From an uncultured Candidatus Pelagibacter sp. (GTDB taxonomy: Bacteria > Pseudomonadota > Alphaproteobacteria > Pelagibacterales > Pelagibacteraceae): DNA of 32,000 nt. The DNA is taken from positions 1 to 32,000 of the forward strand of contig CAJQRZ010000003.1 of the NCBI GenBank assembly GCA_905612435.1, written 5' to 3'. The notes under the pieces are model-generated. The model had not been told where the DNA came from. It ran no database searches and saw only the letters and a list, made by a program, of their open reading frames with translations. Shown one piece after another: positions 1,381-27,167 of this stretch (position 1 is its first letter; the number at the start of each line of letters is the position of its first letter). A program made the translations under genes and the position numbers.

Positions 1381-1455
1381 GCGGGTCTAGCTCATCGGTA
1401 GAGCGAATCGTTGCCAACGATTAGGTAGAGGGTTCGATTCCCTTGACCCGCTCCA
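1381..1455 (+). tRNA. tRNA-Gly (anticodon GCC), CCA encoded
   Basis: Folded by hand as a 75-nt cloverleaf. Acceptor GCGGGTC/GACCCGC, D arm GCTC-ATCGGTA-GAGC, anticodon arm AATCG-TTGCCAA-CGATT, T arm GAGGG-TTCGATT-CCCTT, then T-CCA. Confidence 0.95.
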
Positions 1456-8303: not shown

Positions 8304-8927
8304 GTGTTGAAATATAAACTCAAATTTAAAGACATAAAACTTGAAGATTTTAAGGTTTATTTATTTGCTTTATTTAAAGCAATACTACCAAAGAAGAAAA
8401 TAAAAAATATTAAAGATCTTGAATCATTCATTCAAAAAAAATCTGCCTGGGTATCACAAGTAACTTTATATAATTATTTGAAAACAAGAATGGGAACAAA
8501 GTGGGTGTTACACTTTGATGATGAAATTTTTTTATCATCCATTAATAAAGCTAAATGGAATATTTATTCCGTAGCCCTTCAAGATCTTACTTTTTATAGT
8601 CTATCATATTTAAAAGTTTTTTATAATTATCAAGAAATAAACAAGGCCAATGAGATATATGAAAAAATTTTAAATGAAGAGGTTAAAAATGGAATGCCTG
8701 AAGAGGTTATTTTACGTGCAAAAGAAAAGTTTGGAGAAAGATTACAAAAAATAGATTGGGAAACACATTATAAGTCTTGGCCATTTAATGAGAGTGCACT
8801 AACTTTATATGAGTGGGCCCCAATTGCTGAAGAATTAAAAAGTTTAGATAGAAAGATAGTTTTAAATTCTATGATTTTAAAATGGGACAATATTAAAGAT
8901 GAGTTTGCAAAACTAATAAGTATTTAA
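8304..8927 (+). CDS. hypothetical protein (207 aa, soluble, no family recognised)
   Basis: Long ORF with a GTG start 8 nt after GAGG. Its composition matches neighbouring genes. Its stop shares the tetranucleotide TTAA with the convergent acs stop. Confidence 0.5.
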
Positions 8928-10927
8928 ATATTTTTTCTATTATCTACTAAACTTTGAACAACACTTGGATCAGCTAAAGTTGTTGTATCACCCAATTGAT
9001 CATGTTCATTAGCTGCAATCTTTCTTAAAATTCTTCTCATAATTTTTCCAGACCTTGTTTTTGGTAAGCCTGGTGAAAAATGGATTATGTCAGGTGTAGC
9101 AATTGGACCAATTTGTTTTCTAACCCAAAGCTTTAGCTCTCTTTCAAGATCTAAATTATCTATTTCATCTGCATTTAAGGTAACATAACAATATAAGCCG
9201 TTCCCTTTAATGTCATGAGGATATCCAACCACAGCTGCTTCAGCAACTTTGGGGTGAGCCACAAAGGCACTTTCTATTTCGGCTGTACCCAAGTTATGAC
9301 CTGAAACGATAATTACATCATCAACACGCCCTGTGATCCAGTAATATCCATCTTTGTCTCTTCTAGCACCATCACCTGTAAAATATTTACCATCAAATTG
9401 TGAAAAGTAAGTATCAATAAATCTTTGATGATCGCCATAAACAGTTCTCATTTGTCCAGGCCAAGATTGAGAAATGCACAGCCTTCCTTCTCCTACTCCT
9501 TTTATTTCTTTTCCATTTTTATCAATTATTGAAGGCTTAATTCCATAGAAGGGTTTAGTTGCTGAGCCAGGTTTTAAATTTATAGCACCTGTTTGTGGGC
9601 TGATCAAAATTCCACCAGTTTCGGTTTGCCACCAAGTGTCAACAATGGGACAATTGGAGTTGCCAACTGTCTTATAATACCACATCCAAGCCTGGGGGTT
9701 TATTGGTTCTCCGACTGTTCCTAATAATTTTAATGATTTTCTTGAAGTTTTTTTTACAGGTTTATCACCCTCTCTCATTAAAGCTCTAATAGCAGTCGGT
9801 GCTGTGTAAAAAATATTCACTTTATATTTGTCAATTATTTGCCACCACCTTGAACTATCAGGATAAGTTGGAATTCCTTCAAACATAACTGTTGTTGCAC
9901 CATTAGCTAGAGGTCCATAAATTATGTAACTGTGACCAGTTACCCAACCGATGTCAGCTGTACACCAGTAAATATCCTTTGGCTTGTAATTAAAAACATA
10001 CTGGTGAGTCATTGAGGCATAAACCATATAACCACCTGTTGTATGTAAAACTCCCTTTGGTTTTCCAGTAGAGCCAGATGTATAAAGAATAAACAAAGGA
10101 TCCTCAGCATTCATTTCTTCAGGTTCACATTTGTTTGAAACGCCTTTAATTAAATCATTATACCAAACATCTCTTCCATCAACCCAATTAACTTTATTTC
10201 CGGTTCTTTTAACCACTATACATTTTTTGACATCTGGACATTTTTTTAAAGCCTCATCTGTAATTTTTTTTAAAGAGATATTTTTTCCACCTCTAACACC
10301 TTCATCTGCCGTAATAATATATTCGGATTCGCAATCATTAACTCTTCCCGAAATAGATTCCGCAGAGAACCCGCCAAAAATAATTGAATGAACTGCTCCG
10401 ATTCTAGCACATGCAAGCATAGTAATTGCGAGCTCAGGAATCATAGTTAAATAAATAGTAACTCGATCACCTTTTTTTATTCCTAACTTTTTTAAACCAT
10501 TTGCAGCCTTAGAAACTTCTTGATGCAGTTGTTTGTACGAAATTTTTTTAGTATCTTTTGGATCATCTCCAACCCAAATAATAGCAGTTTTATCCTTTTT
10601 GTCTTTTAAGTGTCGATCAGTACAGTTACTTGATGCGTTCAATGTTCCGTCTTCATACCATTTGATTTTTACATCTGTTTTACTGTATTTTACATTTTTA
10701 ATTTTTTTATAAGGTTTAATCCAAGTTATTCTCTTCCCTTCTTTTTTCCAAAACTCATTATTATTTTTAATAGAATCGGAATACTTTTTTTTATAGTTGG
10801 CTTTATTTACTAAAGCATTTTTAATCCATTCAGGTTTTATTTTTAAAACCAGTTCTTTTTGAGTAGATTTTATTTTAATATTTTCTTTTTTTTTAGTTTT
10901 CTTTAGAAAAATTTTTTTTTTAGGCAT
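8924..10927 (-). CDS. acs: acetyl-CoA synthetase (AMP-forming)
   Basis: [51 protein letters not shown] and [11 protein letters not shown] are canonical Acs motifs. It carries a ~20 aa Lys-rich N-terminal extension. Confidence 0.95.
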
Positions 10928-10940
10928 TAAATTATTTTCT

Positions 10941-11354
10941 TTAAATACTACTCATCTTATTTAAAATTTTCCAGCTTTTAGAGTCAATAGGCATAACTGA
11001 TAATCTGCTTTGTTTAATAAGTGATAAATGGCTTAAAGCCTTATCTTTTCTGATATCTTTGAGCGTTACAGGTTTTATAAGTTTTTCTTTAAACTTAACT
11101 TGAACAGCCACAAATCTACCATCCTTGTCTGTTTTATCTAAAAAAGCTTCTTTAATCACCTCAACTATACCAACAATTTCTTTCCCGATATTTGAATGAT
11201 AAAAAAAACAAAGATCTCCTTTTTCCATAATTCTTAAATTTTTTGCCGCTTGGTAGTTTCTTACTCCATCCCAAGGAGCACCTTTTGCCCCTACTTTTTT
11301 TTGTTGATCAATAGACCAAACATCAGGCTCAGATTTCATTAACCAGTAGTTCAT
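10941..11354 (-). CDS. EVE (PUA-like, DUF55) domain protein
   Basis: [17 protein letters not shown]...[28 protein letters not shown] is the typical EVE-domain N-terminus. There are only 13 nt to the acs start, so the two are probably co-transcribed. Confidence 0.85.
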
Positions 11355-11425
11355 CTAATTGTTTTTCTTACAGGTCTCCATAATTTATTTTAGCACTTTT
11401 ATTTTACGCTATTTTTACAAAACAC

Positions 11426-11448
11426 GTACCCCACAAAGTACCCCGCAT
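11426..11448. repeat. paired-heptamer site A: GTACCCC-acaaa-GTACCCC-gCAT
   Basis: Read directly from the sequence. It starts 72 nt upstream of the EVE start codon. Confidence 0.6.
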
Positions 11449-11580
11449 TTTTTTTAATATCTAACATTATCTGTTAACGAGAAAAAATATCGCGACAATT
11501 ATTCGCTACATTTACACCTATATTGAACAGAGAGTATCTTTTTTTTAGGGTTTTTTAATATAGGTTCTCGATTTAAAAAT

Positions 11581-11727
11581 ATGAAAAATTTTATCAAAAA
11601 AATTACTATCTTATATCTATGGGTATTATTTATACCAATAGGACTAATACTTAAATCAATATTATTTTTGAGTAAAATACTTAAGAAACTCATTTTATTT
11701 ACTACAAAAAAAGCCAATAGTTTTTAA
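11581..11727 (+). CDS. possible 48-aa hydrophobic mini-protein (MKNFIKKITILYLWVLFIPIGLILKSILFLSKILKKLILFTTKKANSF)
   Basis: ATG-initiated ORF below the track cutoff, with one predicted TM segment flanked by Lys. No SD and no homology recognised. It overlaps the track ORF 11499-11717 on the opposite strand. Confidence 0.25.
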   Translation: MKNFIKKITILYLWVLFIPIGLILKSILFLSKILKKLILFTTKKANSF

Positions 11728-11758
11728 GCTTGTTTATTTAGTGTGCATCGTTAAATCG

Positions 11759-11781
11759 GTACCCCACTACGTACCCCTCAT
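11759..11781. repeat. paired-heptamer site B: GTACCCC-actac-GTACCCC-tCAT
   Basis: Read directly from the sequence. It has the same 7-N5-7-NCAT architecture and orientation as sites A and C. Confidence 0.6.
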
Positions 11782-11857
11782 TTACACTTATTAATAAGCT
11801 TTAATCAAGATTTGTACTGGGAAAATAAGATAAAGGTTGGTGGGAGTCAGTGGAGCC

Positions 11858-11902
11858 TTATCGATGTACTACAAGCTTTGGTTTCATTAACCAGTACTGC
11901 AT
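11858..11902 (-). pseudogene. remnant of an EVE-gene 5' end (MQYWLMKPKLVVHR*)
   Basis: ATG-CAG-TAC-TGG-TTA-ATG-AAA parallels MNYWLMK of the intact gene. A 15-nt identical core (tttcattaaccagta) occurs at 11882-11896 and 11334-11348. The frame stops after 14 codons, and similarity to the gene body ends at the core. Confidence 0.5.
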
Positions 11903-11998
11903 CTATTTGTTTCTCCAGTGTTTACTTATCTTTTTGAACATAGCACTTTCATAATACACCATTTTTAGCAAACACGTGACATGTCAAGTGACATACAT
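11882..11998 (-). repeat. diverged duplicate of the EVE start codon plus ~95 bp upstream region (partner 11334-11448)
   Basis: Hand alignment shows a 15/15 core. The last 35 nt before the heptamer site match 28/35 (tagcactttt...aaaacac vs tagcactttc...caaacac). Core-to-heptamer spacing is nearly the same (77 vs 79 nt). Confidence 0.6.
11976..11998. repeat. paired-heptamer site C: GTGACAT-gtcaa-GTGACAT-aCAT
   Basis: Read directly from the sequence. It occupies the position in the duplicate that corresponds to site A, but both heptamers carry the same different sequence. Confidence 0.6.
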
Positions 11999-12017
11999 AT
12001 CCAAGTCTCGTTGTGTT

Positions 12018-12028
12018 TACTGGTTAAT
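12018..12028 (+). repeat. inverted third copy of the 11-bp core ATTAACCAGTA
   Basis: tactggttaat is the exact reverse complement of attaaccagta (11338-11348 and 11886-11896). On the plus strand it reads YWLIK. Confidence 0.5.
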
Positions 12029-12185
12029 AAAAGAAATTAGCTTACATTCTTCCAATCCTCTGGTCCAATTTATTTAATATCTTTATCTTTTTCAAGAAAA
12101 GAAAATTCTATCCCATATAAATTTGAAATACGACCAGTAATTTTTTTAAATATACAAAATAACAAAATGTTATTAAGTTTATATT

Positions 12186-13451
12186 ATGAAAAAAAAATGG
12201 ATAATAATTATTTTGATAATCATTATTTTAGCAATATTATTGTCATTTTTTTCTGTTCTGTTTTTAAAAAAAGCAAGAGAAACTAGATCTTGGCCATTTG
12301 CTTCAGGATTATCTTTTAAATTACCGTCAGTCGTGAAATATTATGCTTATAAATTCACAAATCCCGAGTCTTTAACAATAGAGACACACTTATATGAAAT
12401 AAATACAGAATTTTTATCGATACCTGATCAGGAAGCAACAGGTAGTGGTGGAAGTGTAAATATTCTTAATAAAGATAATTTACTTATTACATTAGATAAT
12501 GGAAATAACTGGATATTAAATCTTGCAACCAAAAATTTTGTAAAAGGGCCTGATATTTTTTCTAATAAATTTTTAAGCATAAGGGATGTAAATATTTTCC
12601 CTGAAAAAAAAGAGATCGCACTTTTAGTGGGTGAAAATAATAATAACTGTAAAATCATGAAGTTAAAAATTTATGATTTCAGCTTTTTAGAAAAAAAATT
12701 AGAAATAGATAATGACAGAACTTTGTGGAAGTCTGAAAAAATGTGTGAAGAAGATTTTAACCCATTGATTAACAATGGGGGGGGTAGAGTAATATTTTAT
12801 AAAAATAGTTATTTTATATCAATTGGTTTTTTAGCCCAAAATATCGAATCTGGTGTTTATAATCCTTTTCCTCAGAATCCAAATAGCTCATTCGGAAAAA
12901 TTATAAGAATATTTGATGAAAATAATAGTGAGATTTACTCTATTGGCCATAGAAATCCACAAGGTCTTTTTGTTAGGCAAAAAAATGATTTACTAATTTC
13001 AACAGAACATGGCCCCAGAGGTGGTGATGAAATAAATTTGATTACTAAAAATTCAAATTATGGTTGGCCGTGCAAGTCAATCGGGACATTGTATTCTTAT
13101 GACCTGAAGAATGACTCGAAGCTATGGCCAGATGATTTACAAAACTATGGCTGTGTAGATAATAAGTTATTTATTGATCCATTGTATTCTTGGACTCCTT
13201 CAATTGGTGCATCACAGGGTCTGGAATATAAAGGAGATGAATTTTCTAAAATGAAAGATAATTTAATTATATCATCCTTAATAGGAGAATCGTTATTTAG
13301 AGTTAATTTATCAGATAACAATAATGTAATTAACGTTGAAACAATTAGAATTAATGAAAGAATAAGAGACTTAACAGAATCTCCTGACGGTAAAATTGTG
13401 TTATATACTGATGGAGGAAGTTTAATTTTTTTATCAGATAATAATAAATAA
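12186..13451 (+). CDS. PQQ-dependent sugar (glucose/sorbosone) dehydrogenase-like beta-propeller, N-terminal membrane anchor
   Basis: YSIGHRNPQGLFV...STEHGPRGGDEINLITKNSNYGWP is the signature region of the soluble GDH/sorbosone dehydrogenase family. The N-terminus WIIIILIIIILAILLSFFSVLFL is a TM segment. Confidence 0.8.
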   Translation: MKKKWIIIILIIIILAILLSFFSVLFLKKARETRSWPFASGLSFKLPSVVKYYAYKFTNPESLTIETHLYEINTEFLSIPDQEATGSGGSVNILNKDNLLITLDNGNNWILNLATKNFVKGPDIFSNKFLSIRDVNIFPEKKEIALLVGENNNNCKIMKLKIYDFSFLEKKLEIDNDRTLWKSEKMCEEDFNPLINNGGGRVIFYKNSYFISIGFLAQNIESGVYNPFPQNPNSSFGKIIRIFDENNSEIYSIGHRNPQGLFVRQKNDLLISTEHGPRGGDEINLITKNSNYGWPCKSIGTLYSYDLKNDSKLWPDDLQNYGCVDNKLFIDPLYSWTPSIGASQGLEYKGDEFSKMKDNLIISSLIGESLFRVNLSDNNNVINVETIRINERIRDLTESPDGKIVLYTDGGSLIFLSDNNK

Positions 13452-13532
13452 ATTAAGACTATACTATTTTTTCACAATTTTAATTTAGATCTTCATTATT
13501 CCAGGTAAATAAATTGGCATCAAAAGGTATAT

Positions 13533-14837
13533 TTAACCTTCTGGAATTAAATTAATAATTTTTTTAATTGGAATAATTTTATTTTCGATTTCAAAAGATC
13601 TTCCATTTTCTAAAATCTTCTTTGCAACCAATTCCATTGCTGGATACGCAGCTCTTAATAGTTGGTTTGCATAAATTACAATTTTAAATCCATTTTTAAT
13701 AAGATCTTTTTCAAAAACTTTGGAATATGTGGATGGTACTGCAACTAATGGAATAAAATTTTTACTTTTTTTAAAAATTTTAGAAAATGAGAAAATTTCT
13801 TTAGGTGTATTTTCTTTGCTATGAATTAAAATTGCATCTGCTCCTGCTTTAGAATAAATTTCGGCTCTTTTAAGAGCGTCATTTAAGCCTTTTCCCAATA
13901 TAAAACTTTCTACTCTTGCAATAACTAAAAAATCACTTGATTGTCTAGACGAACAAACCTTCTTTATTTTTTTTGCAAATAAACTAGGCTTGTCTTGAGA
14001 GGCACCACTTTGGTTTTTAAATAAAGAGTTTTTTTTTAAACCTATTTTGTCTTCCATAATCATTGCTGAGACACCAGATCTTTCTAAAGATTTTACTAAA
14101 AATGATAAATGTTCTATTTGACCACCATTATCTGCATCAAAAACTAATGGTTTAGTTGTTACATCCATAATGTCATTTACTGAAGAAATACGAGATGAAA
14201 AGTCCAAGGATGAGTTGTCAGGCTTACCTTTTGTTGCTGAGTCTGTAAGGCTTGATGACCACATTCCATCATACTCAATATCTATATTTTTTTTATTTAT
14301 TTTTAAATTTTCAATAATTAATCCTGTTAACGAATTATGAGACTCAAGTAATCTGATAATTTTCTTTGAAAATAGTAATCTTTTTAATCGTGATACCCGG
14401 TTTTCTGGCAATGTACCAACTTCTAAGATTTTTTTTTTAATTAGTGTGGATGAAATATTTTTTGTATATTTTGGCTCAATTAGTTTGCCAGACCATTTTC
14501 TTAAAATTTTAATTACTCTTTCTCTAGTTTTTTTTTGAGGTCCCTTTTTCCAGTCATCACCATGAATTACAAAATCTGGTTTGATAAGATTTAAATTACT
14601 AACGTAGTCCAAAGTTTCTTGTTTAATAACACTTTTAACATATTTAATGTTTTGAATAATAATTTTTCTTCTTTTATAGTCTAAATAAGGAATATTTTTA
14701 TATGAAGCAATTGCTTCGTCAGTCAATAAACCAACTATTACATCACCAAATGTACTCGCTTTTTTTAAAATACTAATATGACCTTCATGAATGATATCAG
14801 CAGCAAGACCGATATATACTTTTTTTCTAATTTTCAT
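13533..14837 (-). CDS. pepM: fusion protein: N-terminal cytidylyltransferase domain + C-terminal phosphoenolpyruvate phosphomutase
   Basis: The N-terminus GLAADIIHEGHISILKKA (HxGH) and KNISST resemble TagD/ECT-type cytidylyltransferases. The C-terminal ICL/PEPM-fold region has LESHNSLTGLIIE, FDADNGG and MEDKIGLKKNS, i.e. the PepM-diagnostic EDK-X5-NS motif. Confidence 0.85.
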   Translation of the reverse strand: MKIRKKVYIGLAADIIHEGHISILKKASTFGDVIVGLLTDEAIASYKNIPYLDYKRRKIIIQNIKYVKSVIKQETLDYVSNLNLIKPDFVIHGDDWKKGPQKKTRERVIKILRKWSGKLIEPKYTKNISSTLIKKKILEVGTLPENRVSRLKRLLFSKKIIRLLESHNSLTGLIIENLKINKKNIDIEYDGMWSSSLTDSATKGKPDNSSLDFSSRISSVNDIMDVTTKPLVFDADNGGQIEHLSFLVKSLERSGVSAMIMEDKIGLKKNSLFKNQSGASQDKPSLFAKKIKKVCSSRQSSDFLVIARVESFILGKGLNDALKRAEIYSKAGADAILIHSKENTPKEIFSFSKIFKKSKNFIPLVAVPSTYSKVFEKDLIKNGFKIVIYANQLLRAAYPAMELVAKKILENGRSFEIENKIIPIKKIINLIPEG

Positions 14838-14977
14838 CGTAATTATTTTATATAGAAACTATCCAATGCGTCTATAAAAATTTAAAAAACTTTTTAAGTT
14901 TAAGACCAATAATGTAATTTATTAATATACACACGGTTAAAACTTACTTGTTCTAAATGCAATAAAAGTGTTTTTCA

Positions 14978-16051
14978 TTATAATCTTACTCCAGCGCCTT
15001 TTAAAAAGGCCGCTTCTTCATCCAAGGGCCATCTAGGTTTAGCGGGGTGATCTAATTCACTAAATTGTTTAAGTTTATATTTTTCTAAACCAACCATAGC
15101 AATCATTGCTGCATTATCTCCACATAAATTTATAGGTGGAAAAATAGCATTGAAGTTTTCTTCATTACAAAGCTTTGTTAAAACTTTTCTAATTTTTTTA
15201 TTTGCAGCAACACCACCAGCAACTACAAAGATATTAGCTTTATCTCCATTAATATTTTTAAATTCTTTAAATGCAATTTTGCTTTTTTTATAAAGTATTT
15301 CTTCAACAGTTTTTTGAAAAGAGGCTGCAAGATCATATTTTTCTTGATCTGTTTTTATTTTTTTTACAATTCTAAGTACTGCAGTTTTAAGTCCAGCAAA
15401 AGATAAATTGCACCCACCTTTATGAAAGATTGGTTTTGGTAATTTATATTTATCGGGATCACCTTTTTTGGCGTACTCTTCTATTTGTGGACCACCAGGA
15501 AATTCTATACCAAGCATTTTTGCAGTTTTGTCAAATGCTTCACCAAGGGCATCGTCAATTGTTGTTCCTAATCTTTTATACTCTCCTAATCCTTTAACAC
15601 TTAAAAATTGAGTATGCCCTCCTGAAATTAGAAGTAAGAGATAAGGATAATTTAATTTAGAATTTAATTTTGGGCTTAGTGCGTGACCTTCTAAATGATT
15701 TACTGCAATAAATGGTTTATTTAGAGAGGATGCCATTGCTTTTCCAAAACTCAAACCAACTGATAAACAAACGATAAGACCGGGACCTGCGGTAGCTGCA
15801 ATTGCATCTACATCATCTAGCATGATGCCACTTTTATCAATTGCTTTTTTGGTAATTAAATCAATTTTTTCTATATGAGATCTTGCAGCAAGTTCTGGAA
15901 CAACTCCACCAAACTCCTTATGAACATCAACTTGGCTTGAAACGATACTAGATAAAATTGTTGGAGTGCCTTGTTCATTTTCAGTAATTATTGATGCAGC
16001 TGTTTCATCACAACTTGATTCAATTCCCAAAATTATAGGTTTTTTGCTCAT
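14978..16051 (-). CDS. tsaD: tRNA N6-adenosine threonylcarbamoyltransferase
   Basis: ILGIESSCDETAASI, NHLEGHALSP, LLLISGGHTQ and VAGGVAAN are Kae1/TsaD motifs. Confidence 0.95.
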   Translation of the reverse strand: MSKKPIILGIESSCDETAASIITENEQGTPTILSSIVSSQVDVHKEFGGVVPELAARSHIEKIDLITKKAIDKSGIMLDDVDAIAATAGPGLIVCLSVGLSFGKAMASSLNKPFIAVNHLEGHALSPKLNSKLNYPYLLLLISGGHTQFLSVKGLGEYKRLGTTIDDALGEAFDKTAKMLGIEFPGGPQIEEYAKKGDPDKYKLPKPIFHKGGCNLSFAGLKTAVLRIVKKIKTDQEKYDLAASFQKTVEEILYKKSKIAFKEFKNINGDKANIFVVAGGVAANKKIRKVLTKLCNEENFNAIFPPINLCGDNAAMIAMVGLEKYKLKQFSELDHPAKPRWPLDEEAAFLKGAGVRL

Positions 16052-25957: not shown

Positions 25958-25974
25958 GAAAGTTTCAATTAAAA

Positions 25975-26035
25975 ATCGGGCATTTGAACCGTATTGTGCA
26001 CCCTGCATTTGCTAAAGCACTAAAAAGGAGAGAAG
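25975..26035 (+). promoter_or_regulatory. SAM-V-like riboswitch aptamer abutting a Shine-Dalgarno sequence
   Basis: A second TGCTAAAGC box lies at 26010-18. Stem GTGC (25996-99) / GCAC (26017-20) is followed immediately by TAAAAAGGAG (GGAG 26027-30). I could not fold the full pseudoknot by hand, so the boundaries are approximate. Confidence 0.5.
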
Positions 26036-26105: not shown

Positions 26106-27167
26106 ATGACAAAAAATATATTAAAAGAAAGATTAGATAAAGGACCTGTAATATGTGCAGAGGGTTTTTTATTTGAAATTGAAAGACGTGGTTATATGGC
26201 ATCGGGGGAATTTGTTCCCATGGTTTCATTAGATCATCCAGAAGTATTAGAAAATCTACACAGAGAATTTCAGCATGCAGGATCAGATATTGTAGAAGCC
26301 TTTACTTATAATGGACATAGAGAAAAAATGCGAGTTATTGGAAAAGAAGAACTTCTTGAACCATTAAATCGTTCAGCTCTGAAAATAGCAAAAAAAGTTG
26401 CCTTAGATATACCTAAGGGGAGCAAACCAAATTTAATGGCAGGAAATATTTCTAATTCAAATATTTGGAAACATGACGACAAACAATCCCAAAAAGAAGT
26501 TGAAGAAATGTTCTCAGAAATGATTGGTTGGGCTGTTGAAGAAGGTGCTGATATGTTAGTTGGTGAAACTTTTTATTATGCAGAAGAAGCCTTTAAAGCA
26601 TTAGAGGTAATGAAAAAAACAGGTTTACCAACAGTGTTGACAATATCTCCAATGGGTGAAAACAAAATGAGAGATGGAAAATCCGTTATTGATACCTGTA
26701 AAGAACTTGAACAACTTGGTGCAGATGTTGTTGGTTTGAATTGTTTTAGAGGACCAGCAACCATGTTTCCTTTTTTAAAAGAAATCAGAGAAGCTGTTAA
26801 ATGTCATGTTGGAGCTTTACCTATTCCTTATAGAACAAGTCAAGAATTTCCTACATTCTTTAATCTACCTGACAGAAGTAATTGTGAATGTCCATCACCT
26901 CATGGAAGAACATTTCCAACTGCACTAGATCCACATTTTTGCAATAGATATGAAATTGGTAAATTTGCAAAGAATGCATATGCACTAGGCATTAATTATA
27001 TTGGTGTGTGTTGTGGAGCCAACCCAATGTTGATAAGAGAAGTAGCGGAGTCAGTTGGCTTAAATGTTCCAGCAAGTAAATACCGAGAAAATATGGAAAA
27101 TCATTTTATGTATGGAAAAAATAAAAGAATTCCAAAACACATGACTGATTATGGAGACAAGGCTTAA
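26106..27167 (+). CDS. bhmt: betaine-homocysteine S-methyltransferase (homocysteine S-methyltransferase family)
   Basis: ILKERLDKGPVICAEGFLFEIERRGYMASGEFVPMVSLDHPEVLENLHREFQHAGSDIVEAFTY parallels animal/bacterial BHMT N-termini. GLNCF and GVCCGA are the zinc-ligand Cys motifs. An in-frame TAG at 26091 fixes the start at 26106. Confidence 0.9.
   Translation: MTKNILKERLDKGPVICAEGFLFEIERRGYMASGEFVPMVSLDHPEVLENLHREFQHAGSDIVEAFTYNGHREKMRVIGKEELLEPLNRSALKIAKKVALDIPKGSKPNLMAGNISNSNIWKHDDKQSQKEVEEMFSEMIGWAVEEGADMLVGETFYYAEEAFKALEVMKKTGLPTVLTISPMGENKMRDGKSVIDTCKELEQLGADVVGLNCFRGPATMFPFLKEIREAVKCHVGALPIPYRTSQEFPTFFNLPDRSNCECPSPHGRTFPTALDPHFCNRYEIGKFAKNAYALGINYIGVCCGANPMLIREVAESVGLNVPASKYRENMENHFMYGKNKRIPKHMTDYGDKA

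What the first reader, a model, noticed from the sequence alone, without database searches (positions are those of the whole stretch)
11426..11998. Three paired-heptamer direct repeats (7-N5-7-NCAT) whose two half-sites co-vary
Site A (11426) is GTACCCC-acaaa-GTACCCC-gCAT, site B (11759) is GTACCCC-actac-GTACCCC-tCAT, and site C (11976) is GTGACAT-gtcaa-GTGACAT-aCAT. A and C occupy equivalent positions in the two diverged copies and share the preceding aaacac. Yet five of the seven heptamer positions changed, identically in both half-sites. This concerted change implies selection for two identical direct half-sites one helical turn (12 bp) apart. Such spacing fits a tandem-binding DNA protein, either a response-regulator-type or winged-helix factor or recombinase arm-type sites. 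Under the insertion model of the previous finding, A and B flank the putative insert ends at similar distances from the cores (77 and 100 nt). Site A also sits upstream of the EVE-acs unit and could control acs.
Basis: seen in the sequence. Interest (0 to 1): 0.7.

Follow-up and report, generated by a model that had tools for sequence, protein, structure and literature searches.

The report
Integrase arm sites of SAR11 mobile elements
The three paired repeats are the docking sites for the integrase of small mobile DNA elements that insert at the start of the EVE gene in SAR11 bacteria; each element lineage has its own repeat sequence, which is why both halves change together.

Summary
The heptamers differ at 4 of 7 positions, not 5. 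A lone 7-N5-7 pair is chance-level here, with 15 in the window. The positional pattern is not chance.

On the EVE (minus) strand the layout is fixed. A pair of 12-bp units starts 92 nt upstream of a 21-nt core (ATGnnnTAYTGGTTAATGAAA, the first EVE codons). A second pair starts about 126 nt downstream, just before a tyrosine integrase gene.

Other contigs show every recombination form:
- unoccupied tsaD|EVE junctions (attB);
- free elements with both arms (attP);
- integrated elements (attL and attR).

Across 68 distinct loci there are 14 heptamer types, and the two units of a pair match far more often than chance. Both arms of one element carry the same heptamer. Neighbouring elements differ. 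Heptamer distance tracks the integrase N-terminal domain (r=0.45, p=0.02), not the rest of the protein.

In the window, A and B (GGGGTAC) are the two arms of a 548-bp remnant without an integrase. C (ATGTCAC) is the arm of a different, older element. These are arm-type integrase sites, not a host regulator's operator for acs. This is a new member of a known kind, and this non-tRNA SAR11 integration site appears unreported.

The parts
11426..11448 (-). Site A: P-arm pair of arm-type units (GGGGTAC at 11444-11438 and 11432-11426) of the attR next to EVE. The distal unit starts 90 nt upstream of the EVE ATG.
11355..11425 (-). U1: the element-derived P-arm segment between site A and the EVE start. 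It holds a -10-like TAAAAT, a purine-rich GGAG tract upstream of the start and ...AACAATTAG just before the ATG. It replaces the tsaD 3' end that normally precedes EVE.
   Evidence: the promoter function is only inferred (one search finds no sigma-70 match)
11334..11354 (-). Core 1 (attR core): ATGAACTACTGGTTAATGAAA, the first 7 codons of EVE.
10941..11354 (-). EVE-domain gene (137 aa), the target gene. It is followed by acs (8924-10927).
11449..11758 (.). Interior of the integrase-less mini-element, with a 48-aa hydrophobic ORF at 11581-11727 (+). The stretch just after B (about 11758-11730, minus strand: CGATTTAACGATGCACACTAAATAAAC) is homologous to the segment that precedes the int start codon in intact elements. 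The int gene itself is missing.
11759..11781 (-). Site B: P'-arm pair of arm-type units (GGGGTAC at 11777-11771 and 11765-11759). It starts 125 nt downstream of the ATG of core 2.
11782..11881 (-). P' arm between core 2 and site B (CCAAAGCTTGT...CTCCCACCAACC...TCTTGATTAAAGC...). It is 77-87% identical to P' arms of other loci. The first-pass reading as a decayed EVE pseudogene was wrong.
11882..11902 (-). Core 2 (attL-type core): ATGCAGTACTGGTTAATGAAA. It lies 548 bp from core 1.
11903..11975 (-). U2: P-arm segment of an older, different element.
11976..11998 (-). Site C: P-arm pair of arm-type units (ATGTCAC at 11994-11988 and 11982-11976) of that older element. It starts 92 nt upstream of core 2's ATG.
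   Evidence: the same type occurs in L269, L299 and L290
11999..12050 (-). Distal P-arm remnant (...TTCTTTTATTAACCAGTAAACACAACGAGACTTGGAT), shared with the right end of intact elements.
12186..16051 (.). Context. tsaD (14978-16051, -) is the normal immediate upstream neighbour of EVE. The genes now between them are GSDH (12186-13451, +) and a PEP-mutase/cytidylyltransferase fusion (13533-14837, -). No core is left at the tsaD end.

Best explanation
A, B and C are arm-type binding sites in the attachment sites of small integrative elements. The elements are 8-11 kb and carry a tyrosine integrase, a T7-type SSB and a DUF5906 primase/helicase, so they resemble phage satellites (VEIMEs). They insert by site-specific recombination into the first 21 nt of the SAR11 EVE gene, at the tsaD|EVE junction.

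Each element's attP has three parts. The P arm holds two tandem 12-bp units starting 92 nt upstream of the ATG, followed by an upstream region and the first 7 EVE codons. The core is ATGnnnTAYTGGTTAATGAAA. The P' arm holds two tandem units about 126 nt downstream, immediately before int.

The integrase is inferred to be heterobivalent, like lambda Int. Its C-terminal domains would act on the core while its N-terminal domain holds the arm units. All units of one element must therefore have the sequence that its own N-domain reads. Different element lineages read different sequences, which gives the apparent co-variation.

On integration the P arm supplies EVE with a new upstream region and start, so the gene stays intact. 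The displaced old start is left at the other end of the element. Repeated integrations and internal deletions build arrays of remnants.

In the window, B (P') and A (P) are the two ends of a 548-bp GGGGTAC-type element that has lost its integrase. C is the P arm left by an earlier ATGTCAC-type element.

Shown here: the geometry, all four att forms, the integrase identity and the co-variation. Inferred: physical binding of the N-domain to the units, the exact crossover position (probably within ATGAAA, from one attL/attR pair in L228), and promoter activity of the upstream region.
For: Geometry. P sites start 90-92 nt upstream of the ATG and P' sites 125-127 nt downstream (one at +117, L240), in the window and in many loci.

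All att forms were seen:
- attB, with tsaD overlapping EVE, in most of 31 SAR11 genomes.
- attP, flanked by element genes on both sides, in L204, L330/L333, L334/L335, L332, L339 and L340. L330 is two head-to-tail 11.26-kb monomers.
- attL, with tsaD then core, P' arm and int, in L228, L323 and L338.
- attR, with P arm then core and EVE, in L228 and the window.

Integrase identity. PHROG_1 integrase, E=1.7e-15. Pfam Phage_integrase in 9 of 20 homologues and a weak Arm-DNA-bind_3 match in 3 of 20. The AlphaFold model has pLDDT 78, and its best Foldseek matches are Tn1549 Int and lambda Int, including full-length lambda Int.

Co-variation. Among 68 distinct P sites, mean mismatch within a pair is 1.26 against 2.82 between loci, p<1e-4. 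For P against P' of the same element it is 0.88 against 2.27, p<5e-5, with 15 of 17 elements concordant. Sites of neighbouring elements at one core differ (L221, L260, L298, window). Heptamer distance correlates with Int residues 1-95 (Mantel r=0.45, p=0.02) but not with the rest of the protein (r=0.09, p=0.32). The heptamers occur only at the two arm positions and all in one orientation.
Against: No binding or recombination experiment exists. The N-terminal arm-binding domain is supported only by weak Pfam hits (E=0.025), by predicted beta-sheet-plus-helix architecture, and by co-variation in just 11 integrases. Two short integrase-less remnants (L260, L300) have discordant P and P' types. 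IMG/VR held no relative of the element by the integrase peptide patterns. The U-core junction pattern gave only two chance matches there, and INPHARED phage genomes had no DNA match. So encapsidation or a helper phage is unshown. The window's mini-element interior is conserved (78% DNA identity, and its 48-aa ORF 71%), so it may be more than a dead remnant.
Confidence: 0.85

Rival explanations
1. The units are bound by another element-encoded protein rather than the integrase N-domain. Candidates are an excisionase or recombination directionality factor, a repressor, or a replication initiator using them as iterons.
For: The elements encode several small unannotated proteins downstream of int, including a weak HTH candidate, and a primase/helicase. 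Tandem direct repeats are also typical of Xis sites and iterons.
Against: The units lie on both arms at fixed distances from the core, and the P' pair abuts int. Lambda-type Xis sites sit on one arm only (my own knowledge). Heptamer distance tracks the Int N-terminal 95 residues specifically. Integrase-less remnants keep the sites only at the att ends.
Confidence: 0.09
2. The pairs are operators for a host tandem-binding transcription factor (response-regulator or winged-helix type) that controls EVE-acs.
For: In the P arm the proximal unit lies where a -35 element would be, about 19 nt upstream of a conserved -10-like TATTAT/TAAAAT. ATGTCAC resembles a Pho-box half-site (my own knowledge).
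Against: There are 14 different heptamer types at the same position. No such site exists where EVE follows tsaD directly. The same pair occurs on the P' arm facing int, away from EVE-acs. The period is 12 bp, not 10-11. No sigma-70 promoter was called there.
Confidence: 0.03
3. The pairs are neutral 12-bp tandem duplications kept alike by replication slippage, with no binding function.
For: The whole 12-bp unit is often repeated. Copy number varies: one unit in L237, L300 and L310, and three in L296.
Against: Slippage cannot keep sites 200 bp to 11 kb apart on two arms identical. It also cannot fix their distance from the core or make them follow the integrase N-domain. The flanking TGy and AC positions are conserved while the middle varies.
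Confidence: 0.03

Closest known systems
Arm-type sites of lambda-type (heterobivalent) tyrosine integrases: lambda P1/P2 and P'1-P'3, and the equivalents in P4, HP1 and Tn916/Tn1549
   Same: Short direct repeats lie on both arms of attP, tens to about 130 bp from a core shared with attB. They are distinct in sequence from the core. The integrase has an extra N-terminal domain, and the catalytic fold matches lambda and Tn1549 Int.
   Different: The integrase is about 570 aa, much longer than lambda Int, and escapes Pfam in most members. There are two (rarely three) units at a strict 12-bp period on each arm, all in one orientation. Binding is untested. A natural series of at least 14 site variants, with matching N-domain variants, shares one core.
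VEIMEs, the marine phage satellites reported in Pelagibacter (Eppley et al. 2022, PMC9618062; also PMC11876622)
   Same: Size of 8-11 kb. A tyrosine integrase plus primase/helicase and no recognised capsid genes. Found integrated in Pelagibacter genomes. One contig is a head-to-tail concatemer.
   Different: Encapsidation and a helper phage are not shown here. The papers I could read do not describe this att site, its arm repeats or the tsaD|EVE target, and they stress tRNA-linked sites.
Temperate pelagiphages (HTVC019P and HTVC010P types)
   Same: SAR11 hosts. Tyrosine integrase next to attP. The element carries the 5' part of its target so that the target is rebuilt after integration (10.1101/410191).
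   Different: All the reported ones integrate into tRNA genes (PMC8477408), whereas this one targets the 5' end of a protein-coding gene. No DNA similarity to deposited phages. The genome is far too small for a podovirus.
CIMEs and other non-autonomous att-flanked remnants (my own knowledge)
   Same: The window's 548-bp unit keeps both att ends with matching arm sites but has no integrase.
   Different: Mobilisation in trans is untested. It may simply be a deletion derivative.

Membership tests
att site with arm-type sites of a heterobivalent tyrosine integrase | A tyrosine recombinase is encoded next to attP | tested here: met
   PHROG_1 integrase E=1.7e-15. Pfam Phage_integrase in 9 of 20 homologues. 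Foldseek best matches are Tn1549 and lambda Int, E about 1e-5. int starts 20-40 nt after the P' pair.
att site with arm-type sites of a heterobivalent tyrosine integrase | A core sequence is shared by attP and attB, and the hybrid attL and attR forms exist | tested here: met
   attB, attP, attL and attR all share ATGnnnTAYTGGTTAATGAAA.
att site with arm-type sites of a heterobivalent tyrosine integrase | Repeats lie on both arms, away from the core, and differ in sequence from it | tested here: met
   Pairs start about 92 nt upstream and 126 nt downstream of the ATG in many loci. The heptamers are absent elsewhere in the elements' att regions.
att site with arm-type sites of a heterobivalent tyrosine integrase | The integrase has an N-terminal arm-binding domain | tested here: inconclusive
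   Weak Arm-DNA-bind_3 match in 3 of 20 (E=0.025). The model shows four strands and a helix in residues 37-115. Alignments to full-length lambda Int span more than 500 columns. The domain could not be searched on its own.
att site with arm-type sites of a heterobivalent tyrosine integrase | Site sequence is specific to the element and follows its integrase | tested here: met
   P and P' of one element match (p<5e-5). Mantel r=0.45, p=0.02 with Int residues 1-95, and r=0.09 with the rest, n=11.
att site with arm-type sites of a heterobivalent tyrosine integrase | The integrase physically binds the repeats, and they are needed for recombination | not testable with these tools
   Needs EMSA or footprinting and recombination assays.
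VEIME / phage satellite | A small integrative element with integrase and replication genes and no capsid module | tested here: met
   L323 has about 8 kb between tsaD and host genes, with int, SSB and DUF5906 primase/helicase. The L330 monomer is 11.26 kb. Capsid genes were not searched for exhaustively.
VEIME / phage satellite | Packaged in virions with the help of a phage | not testable with these tools
   Only an indirect hint: a concatemeric contig. No match in IMG/VR or INPHARED.
Operator of a tandem-binding host transcription factor (PhoB/OmpR type) | The half-site sequence is conserved at orthologous promoters | tested here: not met
   14 heptamer types at the same position. The site is absent where EVE follows tsaD.

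The most novel reading that the evidence does not exclude
The tsaD|EVE junction may be an unrecognised, non-tRNA integration hotspot of SAR11. A family of satellite-like elements shares one core there but has diversified into at least 14 arm-site 'codes' with matching integrase N-domains. Tandem integration and decay of these elements leave att-flanked cassettes, such as the window's GSDH/PEP-mutase genes and the 48-aa ORF unit. This would be one way the streamlined SAR11 genome builds a flexible island. The natural site/N-domain series could also be used to work out the recognition rules of arm-binding domains.
Probability: 0.55. Interest if true: 0.55.

Novelty: new member of a known kind. 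Interest (0 to 1): 0.45.

Why it matters
SAR11 genomes are usually described as almost free of canonical mobile elements, and its known temperate phages all use tRNA genes. Here a protein-coding gene start serves as the attachment site. All four att forms are readable in public data, and arrays of decayed elements sit at one locus. This gives a concrete, testable mechanism for gene gain next to a core gene in the ocean's most abundant bacterium. The many arm-site variants on one shared core are a natural experiment on how integrase arm-binding domains choose their DNA. For annotation, it warns that 'co-varying half-sites' near a gene start can mark a mobile element's ends rather than a regulator's operator.

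Tried and rejected
- Structured RNA or riboswitch. Rfam found nothing in the region of the window, only SAM-V and a tRNA elsewhere. It also found nothing in 15 related loci, including the conserved 150-200-nt stretch upstream of the P arm.
- Leader peptide. The conserved ATGAAA in the upstream region opens ORFs of very different lengths, so no conserved peptide exists (read).
- Decayed EVE pseudogene at 11782-11902. Rejected when the same sequence proved to be the conserved P' arm.
- Generic search for GTACCCC-N5-GTACCCC in viral contigs. It gave only unrelated chance hits.
- DNA similarity to deposited phages: none.
- Integrase peptide patterns in IMG/VR: none.
- Profile of the integrase family against PDB sequences: none. 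Fold comparison was needed.
- attL of the older (site C) element at the tsaD end of the window. No core remains there.
- The inverted TACTGGTTAATAAAA at 12018-12032 is part of the conserved distal P arm. As a core copy it is no better than chance: 42 of 100 shuffles give at least 3 matches.
- Sigma-70 promoter in the upstream region: not called.

Full report
**1. The observation**

The three sites are exactly as described:
- A: 11426 GTACCCC-acaaa-GTACCCC-gCAT
- B: 11759 GTACCCC-actac-GTACCCC-tCAT
- C: 11976 GTGACAT-gtcaa-GTGACAT-aCAT

A and C lie at equivalent positions of two diverged copies, 11324-11427 and 11872-11977, about 81% identical. Two details need correction. The heptamers differ at 4 of 7 positions, not 5. 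A lone exact 7-N5-7 pair is not special, because the 29% G+C window holds 15 of them. What is unusual is that GTACCCC occurs nowhere else in the window, and that a second, different pair sits in register in the diverged copy.

**2. Context**

The window is from SAR11 (Pelagibacteraceae). On the minus strand the gene order is as follows:
- tsaD (16051-14978);
- a PEP-mutase/cytidylyltransferase fusion (14837-13533);
- GSDH, on the opposite strand (12186-13451);
- site C, site B and site A;
- the EVE-domain gene (11354-10941);
- acs (10927-8924).

In most of 31 SAR11 genomes, EVE follows tsaD directly with overlapping stop and start (...TTGTAATG...), and no such repeats are present. The window therefore carries inserted DNA between tsaD and EVE.

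**3. Comparative data**

One metagenome scan was anchored on the junction between the upstream region and the EVE start. It made no assumption about the heptamers and returned 120 loci.

Read on the EVE strand, most loci show the same layout. It runs (w)ATGy-heptamer-TTTGT-heptamer-GTGTTTT..., then a -10-like TATTAT or TAAAAT, then ...GGAGAAACAATTAG-ATG. The heptamers differ from locus to locus: GGGGTAC, ATAGCAC, GTTGTAC, ATGGTAC, ATGTCAC, GTGGTAC, ATATCAC, GTAGTAC and others.

In 68 non-identical sites there are 14 proximal heptamer types. The two units of a locus differ at 1.26 positions on average, against 2.82 between loci, and none of 10,000 permutations reached that value. Positions 6-7 (AC) and the TGy before each heptamer are conserved, while positions 1-5 vary.

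**4. What the sites are**

The sequence after the 'second EVE start' in the window (ATGCAGTACTGGTTAATGAAA|CCAAAGCTTGT...CTCCCACCAACC...TCTTGATTAAAGC...) is not a decayed pseudogene. It is a conserved module found in many loci. It ends in a second pair of units and then, in intact copies, a 550-580-aa gene.

That gene encodes a tyrosine integrase:
- PHROG_1 integrase, E=1.7e-15.
- Pfam Phage_integrase in 9 of 20 homologues.
- The AlphaFold model has pLDDT 78, and its best fold matches are Tn1549 Int and lambda Int, including full-length lambda Int.

The geometry is fixed. One pair starts 90-92 nt upstream of the ATG (the P arm). The other starts 125-127 nt downstream (the P' arm; +117 in L240), in the window and elsewhere. 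Between them lies a 21-nt core, ATGnnnTAYTGGTTAATGAAA, which is the first seven EVE codons.

All four recombination forms are present in public data:
- attB: tsaD|EVE.
- attP, flanked on both sides by element genes: L204, L330/L333, L334/L335, L332, L339, L340.
- attL: tsaD, core, P' arm, int, in L228, L323 and L338.
- attR: P arm, core, EVE, in L228 and the window.

**5. The element**

On a 317-kb host contig (L323) the order is hemC, hemD, tsaD, then the insert. The insert carries int, small ORFs, a T7-type SSB, an 816-aa DUF5906 primase/helicase and a 180-aa ORF, about 8 kb in all, before host genes resume. L330 consists of two head-to-tail 11.26-kb monomers that are 97.6% identical.

Size and gene content fit the virion-encapsidated integrative mobile elements (phage satellites) reported in Pelagibacter (PMC9618062, PMC11876622). 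They do not fit the 35-40-kb (size from my own knowledge) temperate pelagiphages, which are reported to use tRNA genes only (10.1101/410191, PMC8477408). I found no relative in INPHARED or IMG/VR.

**6. Why both half-sites change together**

The P and P' pairs of one element carry the same heptamer. This holds in 6 attP sequences and in 9 of 11 integrated elements. Mean mismatch is 0.88 against 2.27 after permutation, p<5e-5.

The two pairs that flank one core in an array belong to different elements, and they differ: GGGGTAC against ATAGCAC in L221, and ATGTCAC against GGGGTAC in the window. The heptamers occur only at these two positions and always in the same orientation.

Across 11 integrases, heptamer distance correlates with residues 1-95 (Mantel r=0.45, p=0.02). 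It does not correlate with the rest of the protein (r=0.09, p=0.32). The three GGGGTAC-type integrases share ...KFR[LI]KGQ..KKR[IV]F..., while other types have other residues there.

This is the behaviour expected of arm-type sites read by the N-terminal domain of a heterobivalent integrase. All sites of one element must fit one protein, and lineages have diverged. No concerted change took place within one locus.

**7. Reading the window**

- B (P') and A (P) are both GGGGTAC. They are the two ends of a unit measuring 548 bp from core to core (11902 to 11354).
- The segment right after B (CGATTTAACGATGCACACTAAATAAAC) is homologous to the sequence preceding int in intact elements, but int is gone.
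- The 310-bp interior is 78% identical to a stretch of L221. There the same unit sits at another place in an array, and its 48-aa hydrophobic ORF is 71% conserved.
- C (ATGTCAC, as in L269, L299 and L290) is the P arm of an earlier element. About 50 nt of its distal arm survive (11999-12050). No matching attL is left at tsaD.

**8. What remains inferred**

- Binding of the units by the integrase N-domain has not been shown. The Pfam Arm-DNA-bind_3 hits are weak.
- The crossover position is inferred from a single attL/attR pair in L228. A G/A difference there places it to the right of TTGGTT[G/A], within ATGAAA.
- The P arm may supply a promoter for EVE-acs. A -10-like hexamer is conserved, but no sigma-70 promoter is called and no -35 exists.
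- Another element protein (an excisionase or a replication initiator) is the main rival reader of the sites.
- A host regulator of acs is effectively excluded by the comparative data.

**9. Novelty**

Arm-type sites and satellite-like elements in Pelagibacter are both known kinds. New here are the target (the 5' end of a protein-coding gene at tsaD|EVE), the att anatomy, and the series of at least 14 site variants on one shared core. None of these appears in the papers I could read. One of those papers states that SAR11 genomic islands lack canonical mobile elements (PMC11796062). I rate this a new member of a known kind, of moderate interest.

Noticed in passing
window 11581-11727 (+); L221: The 48-aa hydrophobic ORF inside the integrase-less 548-bp unit is kept intact and is 71% identical in L221. 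There the same unit sits at a different place in an element array. The mini-element may be a mobilisable cassette rather than debris.
   Followed up: partly
L274 (cores 206 bp apart), L310 (cores 195 bp apart): These are about 200-bp 'scars' in which the P' arm runs straight into the P-arm upstream region through a single heptamer unit. It looks as if the whole element was deleted by recombination between its two arm-site pairs.
   Followed up: partly
L204, L228, L227, L264, L269, L295: about 60-250 nt upstream of the P-arm pair: A conserved 150-200-nt non-coding stretch at the right end of the elements (...GGACCCCT...GAACAAAG.TGGTATCT.TTCTTTTGCTAGGTTGTACGAATAAG...). It has no Rfam match and could be a structured RNA, an origin or a packaging site.
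   Followed up: partly
L341 (integrase P0017, 38% identical): A distant relative of the integrase sits next to the 5' half of a tRNA gene. A similar tandem pair (GGTGCTAC / GGTGGTAC) lies just upstream of its int gene. The same att design is therefore used on a tRNA target.
   Followed up: no
L215, L226, L240, L220, L271 (between a P' pair and a matching P pair): Many att-flanked units have no integrase but carry unrelated cargo genes. Examples are 616-aa and 703-aa ORFs, a 400-aa radical-SAM-like ORF and a 190-aa isochorismatase-like ORF. This suggests the hotspot accumulates cassettes.
   Followed up: no
window 13533-14837 (-) and 12186-13451 (+): A PEP-mutase/cytidylyltransferase fusion (phosphonate biosynthesis type) and a glucose/sorbosone dehydrogenase lie in the inserted DNA between tsaD and EVE.
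   Followed up: no
window 25968-26033 (+): A SAM-V riboswitch (Rfam RF01826, 74.8 bits) lies upstream of the ORF at 26106-27167.
   Followed up: no
window 1381-1455 (+): tRNA-Gly (GCC).
   Followed up: no
L327-L329 upstream of int: Here the attL core reads ATGGCAAAATCCTATTTTCTAATGAAA, an EVE start of the L030 type (MAKSYFLMK) rather than M.YWLMK. The element family therefore tolerates a diverged core.
   Followed up: no
L296 144-178: A P' arm with three tandem units (ATAGCAC x3) instead of two.
   Followed up: no
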